NCBI GenBank assembly: GCA_041691575.1
Contig: JBEPUJ010000014.1
Location: 24,238 to 88,237 of the forward strand
DNA from: Terriglobales bacterium
GTDB lineage: Bacteria > Acidobacteriota > Terriglobia > Terriglobales > Acidobacteriaceae
Direction: 5' to 3'
Length of the DNA stretch: 64,000 nt
Positions 17,290 to 60,285 of the stretch are shown piece after piece. Each line of letters opens with the position of its first letter. The stretch's first letter is position 1. A model generated the notes under the pieces. The model searched no databases. It was not told where the DNA came from and saw nothing but the letters and a program-made list of their open reading frames with translations. Position numbers and translations under genes: made by a program.

Positions 17290-18213
17290 CTAAGGTTTGG
17301 TGGCGCGGTAGAGGCCGGCGGTGCCGAAGGTGTAGCTGGTCCAGGTGGGGTCGGTGAAGCCGGCGTTGGCGATGAGTTCGATCATGCGGGCGGGGCGGGG
17401 GAAGCGGGCTACGGAGTCGGGGAGATAGGTGTAGGCTGCCGGGTCTCCGGAGATGAGGCCGCCGAAGCGGGGGAGAATCTGCTTGAAGTAGAGGTTGTAG
17501 AGCGCTCCGGTGATGCCTTCGGGCTGGTTGAAGTCGAGGATGCCGATCTGGCCGCCGGGGCGGAGGATGCGGTGAAGTTCGGCGAGGCCTGCTTCGTAGT
17601 TGCTCAGGTTGCGGAAGCCGAAGGCTGAGATGACGAGATCGATGGAGTTGTCGGCCAGGGGCAGGTGGAGGGCGTCGGCTTCGATGGGGAGGATGTTGTG
17701 CGAGGCGAACTTTTCGGCTCCGCGGGAGAGCATCTGGTGGGAGAAGTCTACAGCGAGGATGGGGGCGATTTCAGGGTTGTCGTCTCCTATCCTTCGCGAT
17801 GAAGCTGCGAAGGATGGGGCACCCGGAGTGTCTTCCCTCTCGATGAGGGGTTGATCTGAATTTTGTGGCGATTCTCCCACCTTAGCGACGATAGAACTGT
17901 CGCGAAGATGGGGCACCCGGTTTTGTGCTGCTGAGGGGCGGTGCTTGAGCAGGGCGAGGGTCATGTCGCCGGTGCCGCAGCAGAGGTCGAGGGCGACGGC
18001 TTCGGGGCGCTGGAGGATGGGGCGGAAGCTGCGGGCGGCCCGGGACCACCACCAGCGGTCGATGCCGATCGAGAGAACATGGTTGAGCAGATCGTACTTC
18101 GGGGCAATGGTGTCGAACATCTGCTGGACGTTCGCGGCGGCGTCCTGATCGGTGGTGGCGCCGATGGGACGGGCTCCGGTGGTACGTTCGTGTTCGGGTA
18201 GCTGCGCTGCCAT
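17290..18213 (-). CDS. ubiE: UbiE/MenG quinone methyltransferase with a ~55-aa internal insertion
   Basis: MFDTIAPKYDLLNHVLS, LDLCCGTGD, ISAFGFRN, LRPGG; overlaps the aroB stop (TAATG). Confidence 0.9.
   Translation of the reverse strand: MAAQLPEHERTTGARPIGATTDQDAAANVQQMFDTIAPKYDLLNHVLSIGIDRWWWSRAARSFRPILQRPEAVALDLCCGTGDMTLALLKHRPSAAQNRVPHLRDSSIVAKVGESPQNSDQPLIEREDTPGAPSFAASSRRIGDDNPEIAPILAVDFSHQMLSRGAEKFASHNILPIEADALHLPLADNSIDLVISAFGFRNLSNYEAGLAELHRILRPGGQIGILDFNQPEGITGALYNLYFKQILPRFGGLISGDPAAYTYLPDSVARFPRPARMIELIANAGFTDPTWTSYTFGTAGLYRATKP
17785..17920 (-). repeat. Two in-frame copies of palindromic family D inside ubiE (17785-17826, 17875-17920)
   Basis: ATCCTTCGC-GATGAAGCT-GCGAAGGAT-GGGGCACCCG and CCCACCTTAGCGAC-GATAGAACT-GTCGCGAAG-ATGGGGCACCCG. 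Confidence 0.85.

Positions 18214-57135: not shown

Positions 57136-57139
<4 letters not shown>
56177..57139 (-). CDS. CPBP (CAAX/Abi) intramembrane metalloprotease
   Basis: [20 protein letters not shown]. Confidence 0.9.

Positions 57140-60285
<3,146 letters not shown>

What the first reader, a model, noticed from the sequence alone, without database searches (positions are those of the whole stretch)
17764..17934. Palindromic repeats translated in frame inside ubiE/menG
Seen: a ~55-aa insert after the SAM-binding motif contains two copies of a hairpin element, giving RVPHLRDSSIVAKVG and PGAPSFAASSRRIG in two different frames; the ORF stays open and motifs on both sides are intact. Known: Rickettsia palindromic elements create new peptide segments this way. 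Inference: a similar protein-invading repeat family in this lineage. All three copies in the window are intragenic and in the same sense orientation.
Basis: partly seen in the sequence, partly recalled or inferred. Interest (0 to 1): 0.68.

Follow-up and report, generated by a model that had tools for sequence, protein, structure and literature searches.

The report
Mobile REP hairpins translated inside ubiE
Three copies of a small mobile DNA hairpin (a REP element, moved by its own RAYT transposase) sit in frame in a floppy surface loop of the only ubiE/menG methyltransferase gene of a soil Edaphobacter; this is real and happens in about 16 housekeeping genes of this genome, but in-frame REPs are already described in other bacteria.

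Summary
Residues 94-149 of the only ubiE/menG gene (window 17767-17934, minus strand) are a tandem array of three ~45-nt repeat units. Two are intact hairpins read in different frames and the middle one is decayed. The array adds a net 51 codons and leaves every catalytic motif intact.

The repeat is a REP family with 96 copies in this 5.06-Mb Edaphobacter genome, in two subtypes. Each subtype has a RAYT gene flanked by inverted copies.
- 71% of copies are intergenic.
- 21 copies lie in frame in 16 well-identified genes, including uvrA, mutS, polA, mnmG, trmFO, asnS, thrS, murI, folC, ispE and rnr.
- Most orthologues have the empty ubiE loop (65 of 79 species).
- At least 9 species carry a REP in the same loop.

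The insert is predicted to be disordered (pLDDT below 50).

The "same sense orientation" reading does not hold. Orientation follows GC skew (21 of 21 intragenic copies), not gene strand (13 versus 8).

At 10 of 17 intragenic sites, sister species carry a REP at the same spot with a different hairpin.

In-frame REPs are already published (Di Nocera 2013; Rickettsia RPEs). This scan has also noted this family, and intragenic REPs in Acidobacteria, on other DNA. Verdict: a new member of a known kind, of moderate interest.

The parts
17290..18213 (-). ubiE/menG (demethylmenaquinone/ubiquinone C-methyltransferase) CDS, 307 aa; the only homologue in the genome at E<=1e-20
17767..17934 (-). REP-derived insert, residues 94-149, lying between the helix after SAM motif I and strand beta-2; net +51 aa compared with the standard loop
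17876..17918 (+). Type B REP hairpin CCCACCTTAGCGACG..CGTCGCGAAGATGGGGCACCC, with its tail GGTTTTGTG running to about 17930; translated as VPHLRDSSIVAKVG
17834..17868 (+). Degenerate middle REP unit: a short hairpin CCCTCTCGATGAGGG plus the tail TTTTGTGG
   Evidence: (family D1, spacing 44/45)
17786..17824 (+). Type A REP hairpin CCTATCCTTCGCG..CGCGAAGGATGGGGCACCC; translated as GAPSFAASSRRIG
57136..60285 (-). uvrA CDS (1049 aa), the host of the third window copy
59561..59605 (+). Type B REP hairpin inside uvrA. Its arm reads TTCG instead of the usual TTAG, which removes the stop codon in the frame used. It lies in a variable loop (59521-59643) that is 38 codons shorter in the two nearest relatives

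Best explanation
The ubiE insert is a tandem array of three REP elements: type B, a decayed unit, and type A. They belong to a REP/RAYT system of the genus Edaphobacter. REPs are short imperfect palindromes that a Y1 (HUH) tyrosine transposase, the RAYT, is thought to cut and paste as single-stranded DNA at replication forks. That mechanism would give them a fixed orientation relative to replication. Insertions fall everywhere. Inside genes, only copies that keep the reading frame, carry no stop codon and land in a tolerant surface loop survive. Most copies of this family are stop-free in 2 of 3 frames on both strands, so in-frame survival is easy. In ubiE the array is translated as a 56-residue disordered loop between helix alpha-A and strand beta-2 of the class I methyltransferase fold, and the enzyme stays functional. 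Shown here: the repeat family, its RAYT genes, the skew-linked orientation, the empty and filled orthologous sites, the intact motifs and the predicted disorder. Inferred: that the RAYT mobilises these copies, that the insert is translated, that the enzyme is active, and that the G-rich strand is the leading strand.
For: The family has 71 exact cores, and 96 copies by nhmmer at E<=0.01, split into two subtypes with compensatory stem differences. An intact 154-aa RAYT at C5:198067-198531 scores 107 bits against NCBIfam NF047646 (cut-off 80) and is flanked by inverted type B REPs. A degraded RAYT at C2:357839-358453 is flanked by inverted type A REPs. 68 of 96 copies are intergenic, where random placement predicts 14%, and they are enriched between convergent genes. 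Orientation follows local GC skew: 74 of 92 copies (Fisher p=5.5e-9) and 21 of 21 intragenic copies, while genes show no strand bias. The ubiE site is empty in 65 of 79 species, including G006 at 91% identity. Other REP hairpins occupy the same loop in at least 9 species, and the tree needs at least 6 changes of state. Length differences at 14 filled-versus-empty comparisons are all multiples of 3. The motif residues D76, CCGTGD 78-83, D156 and FGFRN 198-202 are invariant, and this is the only copy in the genome. In the AlphaFold2 model, residues 104-146 have pLDDT below 50 while the flanks score 87-96. The core 12-mer is found in 60 of 61 genomes of the genus.
Against: RAYT-mediated mobility has not been shown for this family, and no target motif or target-site duplication was seen. 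The conserved head is GGGTGCCCCA, not the GTAG or CGTC tag of published REP superfamilies. Most copies are single or in direct tandem rather than in inverted REPIN pairs (one search list). Strand blocks in two complete relatives are only roughly two-part.
Confidence: 0.82

Rival explanations
1. The inserts are kept because they do something useful. The stable hairpins in the mRNA might pause ribosomes or protect the transcript, or the added peptide might act as a functional linker or docking segment. On this view the recurrence in the same loops reflects selection for the insert.
For: The insert RNA folds into three hairpins at -59.5 kcal/mol, z=-3.95. The same loops of ubiE, uvrA, folC, trmFO, polA, asnS, thrS and mutS carry REPs in several species. 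The inserts in GT39 and polA are shared across species.
Against: 65 of 79 species manage without the ubiE insert. The peptides differ in frame and sequence between hosts. The insert is predicted to be disordered. Copies are strongly depleted in genes: 26% observed against 79% expected. Orientation follows GC skew rather than gene sense, so the mRNA carries either strand.
Confidence: 0.1
2. The ubiE copy is inactivated or decaying, and the open frame is an accident, made likely because REPs contain few stop codons.
For: REP copies are open in 2 of 3 frames on either strand, so an open frame across one element is weak evidence on its own.
Against: This is the only ubiE/menG homologue in a 99.5% complete genome. 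All invariant motif residues are kept. Coding potential is positive on both sides of the insert. The net insert length is a multiple of 3. The same holds for 15 other hosts, which include essential genes.
Confidence: 0.04
3. The loop expansions are not mobile DNA. They would be local low-complexity growth by slippage that happens to look palindromic.
For: Some orthologues carry non-palindromic QQPTTSNQQP-type expansions in the same loop (L038, L065).
Against: The two intact units match genome-wide families of 64 and 32 copies over about 45-60 nt, including flanking consensus sequence. They also match the repeats that flank the RAYT genes.
Confidence: 0.01

Closest known systems
REP elements with RAYT/TnpA_REP transposases (REPtrons; E. 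coli, Pseudomonas, Stenotrophomonas)
   Same: Short imperfect palindromes in high copy, mostly extragenic and enriched after convergent genes. A RAYT gene is flanked by inverted copies. The hairpins vary by subfamily next to a conserved head. Orientation is tied to strand asymmetry.
   Different: The conserved head is a 10-12 nt GGGTGCCCCA(T) rather than GTAG or CGTC. Copies are mostly single or in direct tandem, not REPIN/BIME inverted pairs. About a quarter of copies are intragenic. The phylum is Acidobacteriota.
Intragenic GTAG/CGTC REPs (Di Nocera, De Gregorio, Rocco 2013, PMC3733652)
   Same: In-frame REPs, single or clustered, encoding 20-80 aa within intact genes. DNA repair and replication genes (uvrA, polA), tRNA synthetases and RNA enzymes are over-represented, as they are here (one search compared).
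   Different: A different tag, and a lineage not covered there (that paper mentions only Koribacter TIR-type elements). ubiE was not found as a host in the passages read.
Rickettsia palindromic elements (RPE)
   Same: Palindromic repeats inserted in frame in functional genes and tolerated on protein surfaces.
   Different: From my own recollection, RPEs are about 100-150 bp, belong to an obligate intracellular alpha-proteobacterium and have no known dedicated transposase. The units here are about 45-60 nt and have cognate RAYTs.
IS200/IS605 (IS608, ISDra2) single-strand transposition
   Same: A Y1 HUH enzyme, recognition of hairpins, and an orientation bias relative to replication (PMC6006769).
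   Different: The REPs encode no transposase. No defined target tetranucleotide was found here.

Membership tests
REP/RAYT (REPtron) system | Short (20-40 nt stem-loop) imperfect palindrome in tens to hundreds of copies | tested here: met
   71 exact cores and 96 nhmmer copies. The stems are 12-15 bp, with a conserved C.A mismatch on one strand that is a G.T pair on the other.
REP/RAYT (REPtron) system | Cognate RAYT gene flanked by REPs in inverted orientation | tested here: met
   The RAYT at C5:198067-198531 scores 107 bits against NF047646 (cut-off 80), with type B REPs at 197904(+) and 198533(-). The truncated RAYT at C2 has type A REPs at 357860(-) and 358464(+).
REP/RAYT (REPtron) system | Predominantly extragenic, enriched downstream of genes | tested here: met
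   68 of 96 copies are intergenic against 14% expected. 24 of 67 lie in convergent spacers, which make up 16% of spacer length. Gene calls come from my own codon-model finder.
REP/RAYT (REPtron) system | Conserved GTAG (or CGTC) tetranucleotide at the foot of the hairpin | tested here: not met
   The head is GGGTGC followed by the stem CCCAT...; there is no GTAG or CGTC.
REP/RAYT (REPtron) system | REPIN/BIME organisation (inverted pairs) | tested here: not met
   Inverted doublets occur only beside the RAYTs. Elsewhere the copies are single or in direct tandem.
REP/RAYT (REPtron) system | RAYT binds and cleaves its REP as single-stranded DNA | not testable with these tools
   This needs biochemistry.
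Rickettsia palindromic elements | Sequence membership in RPE-1 to RPE-10 of Rickettsia | not tested
   No RPE library was at hand. Size, host phylum and the presence of a RAYT differ, so the likeness is one of behaviour only.
MITE | Terminal inverted repeats of an IS, plus a target-site duplication | tested here: inconclusive
   I did not notice a duplication or IS-like ends in the filled-versus-empty alignments, but I did not search for them systematically, and the boundaries are blurred by divergence.
UbiE/MenG/COQ5 methyltransferase | Full-length match to PF01209 with SAM motif I and the post-I acidic residue | tested here: met
   157 bits, covering 27-306 of the protein and 7-233 of 233 in the profile. 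CCGTGD 78-83 and D156 are invariant. The nearest solved structure is Coq5, 4obw.

The most novel reading that the evidence does not exclude
The conserved 10-12 nt head GGGTGCCCCA acts as a lasting docking and cleavage site, and the hairpin behind it is an exchangeable cassette. Once a loop of a housekeeping gene has been colonised, whichever REP subfamily the genome's current RAYT drives overwrites the hairpin in place. Intragenic 'landing pads' would then persist through speciation while their sequence turns over. The evidence is as follows. At 10 of 17 intragenic sites, and at one intergenic site, G000 carries type A or B where G006, G014 or G004 carry type C (GTCTCGATTCTGAGAC) at the same spot, with the head kept. 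Subfamily abundances differ by genome. The alternative readings are independent hits on a few tolerant loops, or gene conversion between copies.
Probability: 0.3. Interest if true: 0.6.

Novelty: new member of a known kind. Interest (0 to 1): 0.4.

Why it matters
It shows that Acidobacteriaceae, a dominant group of soil bacteria, tolerate REP hairpins translated inside about 16 core genes for repair, translation and cofactor synthesis. These inserts mislead annotation and inflate the apparent diversity of 'hypothetical' peptides such as VPHLRDSxIVAKVG and GAPSFAASSRRVG. The system is also a natural data set: many orthologous sites are empty, filled, or filled with a different hairpin. That makes it useful for working out how RAYTs move REPs, which is still unsettled.

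Tried and rejected
- **Rfam:** the region scanned at a permissive threshold gave nothing relevant.
- **Gene-sense orientation rule:** rejected, with 13 versus 8 by gene strand against 21 versus 0 by GC skew.
- **Target-site mimicry:** the native ubiE sequence GCCCCCATCCTCGCC resembles the REP head TGCCCCATCCTTCGC, but I saw no such motif at the clean empty sites I inspected (mnmG-1, ispE, acylase and murI). I dropped it as a general rule.
- **Target-site duplication or IS-like ends:** none noticed in the alignments; not searched systematically.
- **Replichore strand blocks in complete relatives G007 and G011:** only roughly two-part, so I did not rely on them. G015:C6 shows a cleaner switch.
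- **Intergenic filled-versus-empty comparison:** only 4 of 14 sites had both flanks conserved.
- **Literature:** searches found no description of this family in Acidobacteria.

Full report
**1. The observation**

The minus-strand ORF 17290..18213 encodes a 307-aa protein. It matches Pfam Ubie_methyltran over essentially the whole profile (E=5.5e-46, profile positions 7-233 of 233). Its nearest solved relative is yeast Coq5, 4obw.

Between the helix that follows SAM motif I (LDLCCGTGDMTLALLKHRP) and strand beta-2 (APILAVDFSH) lie residues 94-149, which correspond to window 17767-17934. This stretch is three head-to-tail units spaced 44-45 nt apart (family D1):
- an intact hairpin at 17876-17918, CCCACCTTAGCGACG...CGTCGCGAAGATGGGGCACCC ('type B');
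- a decayed unit at about 17834-17868;
- an intact hairpin at 17786-17824 ('type A').

On the mRNA strand the two intact copies are read in different frames, as VPHLRDSSIVAKVG and GAPSFAASSRRIG. The 12-mer GATGGGGCACCC occurs three times in the window against 0.59 expected. The third copy is in uvrA, at 59561-59605.

**2. What the repeat is**

The genome (G000) is 5.06 Mb in 196 contigs with 58.4% G+C. The names of its nearest relatives place it in Edaphobacter/Tunturiibacter. It holds 71 exact cores and 96 copies by nhmmer at E<=0.01: 64 of type A and 32 of type B. The consensus unit runs TTTACAT-hairpin-GGGGCACCCGGnnTTTGTGG. The stems of the two types differ by compensatory changes. All copies share a C.A mismatch on the GGGGCACCC strand, which reads as a G.T pair on the other strand.

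Five Y1 transposase matches exist in the genome. Two of them look like REPtrons:
- The intact 154-aa gene at C5:198067-198531 scores 107 bits against NCBIfam 'REP-associated tyrosine transposase' (cut-off 80). It is bracketed by inverted type B copies.
- A truncated gene at C2:357839-358453 is bracketed by inverted type A copies.

I called genes with a self-trained codon model, which gave 3961 genes covering 82% of the genome. With those calls, 68 copies are intergenic, 25 lie inside predicted genes and 3 overlap gene ends. Random placement would put 79% inside genes. Intergenic copies are enriched between convergent genes. This is the anatomy of a REP/RAYT system. The core 12-mer is present in 60 of 61 sampled genomes of the genus, at 0-150 copies each, while the reversed control gives about 0.

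**3. The ubiE insert is a late, recurrent addition**

In a same-genus sample, most orthologues have a short loop. G006, at 91% protein identity, reads HRPKTGSEAPILAVDFS. Among 79 species representatives, 65 have the standard 28-30-residue segment between CCGTGD and DFS, and 14 are expanded. At least 9 of the expanded ones carry a GGGTGCCCC-headed hairpin in this same loop, always in the same orientation. One has three tandem type B units, making a 135-residue segment.

A tree built from UbiE plus AroB, with the loop removed, needs 9 changes of insert state, of which 6 are forced by well-supported branches. The window's genome sits in a well-supported clade of four in which all members have some expansion of the loop. 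A REP was therefore probably already present in their common ancestor, and the array was remodelled later.

This is the only ubiE/menG homologue in a 99.5% complete genome. All residues that are invariant in 35 orthologues are kept. AlphaFold2 with that alignment gives confident flanks (pLDDT 87-96) and pLDDT below 50 for residues 104-146. The mRNA of the insert folds into three hairpins at -59.5 kcal/mol, z=-3.95.

**4. The same thing happens across the genome**

Twenty-one copies lie inside 16 genes that have positive coding potential on both sides of the copy. All 16 have family-level identification:
- DNA repair and replication: UvrA, MutS (2 copies), MutS2, DNA polymerase I;
- tRNA and RNA enzymes: MnmG (3), TrmFO, AsnRS, ThrRS, RNase R;
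- metabolism and cell wall: UbiE (2), MurI, FolC, IspE;
- others: a penicillin amidase (2), a family-5 solute-binding protein, and a PMT_2 glycosyltransferase.

I compared these sites with the two nearest relatives, G006 and G014. Every length difference I could measure from the alignment boundaries was a multiple of three: 42, 45, 69, 69, 78, 84, 93, 120, 129, 129, 129, 147, 153 and 153 nt. For uvrA the difference is 114 nt.

Most copies are stop-free in two of three frames on both strands. The uvrA copy is read in the frame where type B normally has TAA, and there it has TTCG instead of TTAG. Only 1 of 19 intergenic type B copies has that change, compared with 2 of 10 intragenic ones. This fits a selective filter: insertions fall anywhere, and within genes only in-frame, stop-free copies in tolerant loops persist.

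**5. Orientation**

The three window copies share a strand because the whole family follows strand asymmetry. The GGGGCACCC strand lies on the locally G-rich strand for 74 of 92 copies (Fisher p=5.5e-9) and for all 21 intragenic copies. Predicted genes show no strand preference relative to skew. Intragenic copies split 13:8 with respect to gene sense. The window's + strand is G-rich.

A fixed orientation relative to replication is what single-strand Y1 transposition at the lagging-strand template predicts (PMC6006769). That the G-rich strand is the leading strand here is my inference.

**6. Same site, different hairpin**

I aligned the filled sites with G006 and G014 at nucleotide level. Seven sites are empty in both relatives: uvrA, mnmG site 1, ispE, the amidase, murI, the solute-binding protein and rnr. 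At ten sites a relative carries a REP at the same position but with a different stem, typically GTCTCGATTCTGAGAC ('type C'), behind the same GGGTGCCCCA head. These ten are ubiE, folC, trmFO, mnmG site 2, thrS, polA, the glycosyltransferase, asnS and two sites in mutS. G004 shows the same thing in uvrA, and so does one intergenic site.

Subfamily abundances differ by genome. The A/B core occurs 71 times in G000, 5 in G006 and 10 in G014. Type C, allowing up to two mismatches, occurs 12, 14 and 32 times in those genomes, and 47 times in G004.

Three readings are possible: old colonised sites are overwritten in place, tolerant loops are hit again and again, or copies convert one another. I cannot separate these here. 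I give the first as the most novel reading that is not excluded.

**7. Comparison with what is known**

Di Nocera et al. 2013 (PMC3733652) describe in-frame GTAG/CGTC REPs, single or clustered, that encode 20-82 aa in intact genes. They note a striking excess in uvrA, polA, recombination genes and tRNA synthetases, and they relate these to the Rickettsia RPEs.

The present family behaves the same way and meets the REPtron criteria. It lacks the GTAG/CGTC tag and the REPIN pairing.

I found no paper describing this family in Acidobacteria. This scan's own earlier notes do record the same family in another genome, including its skew-linked orientation and in-frame copies. They also record intragenic REPs in other Acidobacteria. 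Those notes agree with what I found independently, but they are not independent evidence.

**8. Verdict**

The finding is real and well-behaved, and it is a new member of a known kind. The gene-sense reading of orientation is wrong. The recurrent reuse of sites with hairpin turnover is the part worth following up.

Translation of the insert and activity of the enzyme remain inferred.

Noticed in passing
G000 C5:205052-207784 (MutS2), C23:34931-35917 (MurI), C30:3792-5453 (FolC), C10:18702-20234 (TrmFO), C2:244588-246039 (AsnRS): A second, unrelated repeat family (TGTCATCCTGAGCG...GAAGGACCTGC) is also translated in frame next to the REPs, as CHPERSAAESKDL or LLSSRSEAEGPAV. MutS2 carries three tandem copies. 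A loose pattern finds 42 copies in the genome, 6 of them well inside genes.
   Followed up: partly
L041 (Edaphobacter sp. MAG JBDTEQ010000012.1), ubiE loop: Three near-identical tandem units of about 105 nt, each holding a type B REP, give a 135-residue segment between CCGTGD and DFS. This is an intragenic REP array that is expanding.
   Followed up: no
G000 C2:357839-358453: The type A RAYT gene appears truncated or frameshifted after about residue 95 (59 bits against a cut-off of 80). My predicted ORF for it runs through a type A REP at its 3' end. Type A may now be non-autonomous or driven in trans.
   Followed up: partly
whole genome G000: GC skew is unusually strong (median absolute value 0.10 in 40-kb windows), yet predicted genes show no strand bias relative to it (970/955 and 798/784).
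   Followed up: partly
L038, L065, L048 ubiE loops: Non-palindromic Q/P/T/N-rich expansions (QQPTTSNQQPA) occupy the same loop in some species. They may be decayed repeats or the product of slippage.
   Followed up: no
G015:C6, about 0.83-0.92 Mb: Copies of the core 12-mer switch from mostly minus strand to exclusively plus strand, as would be expected at a replication origin or terminus.
   Followed up: no
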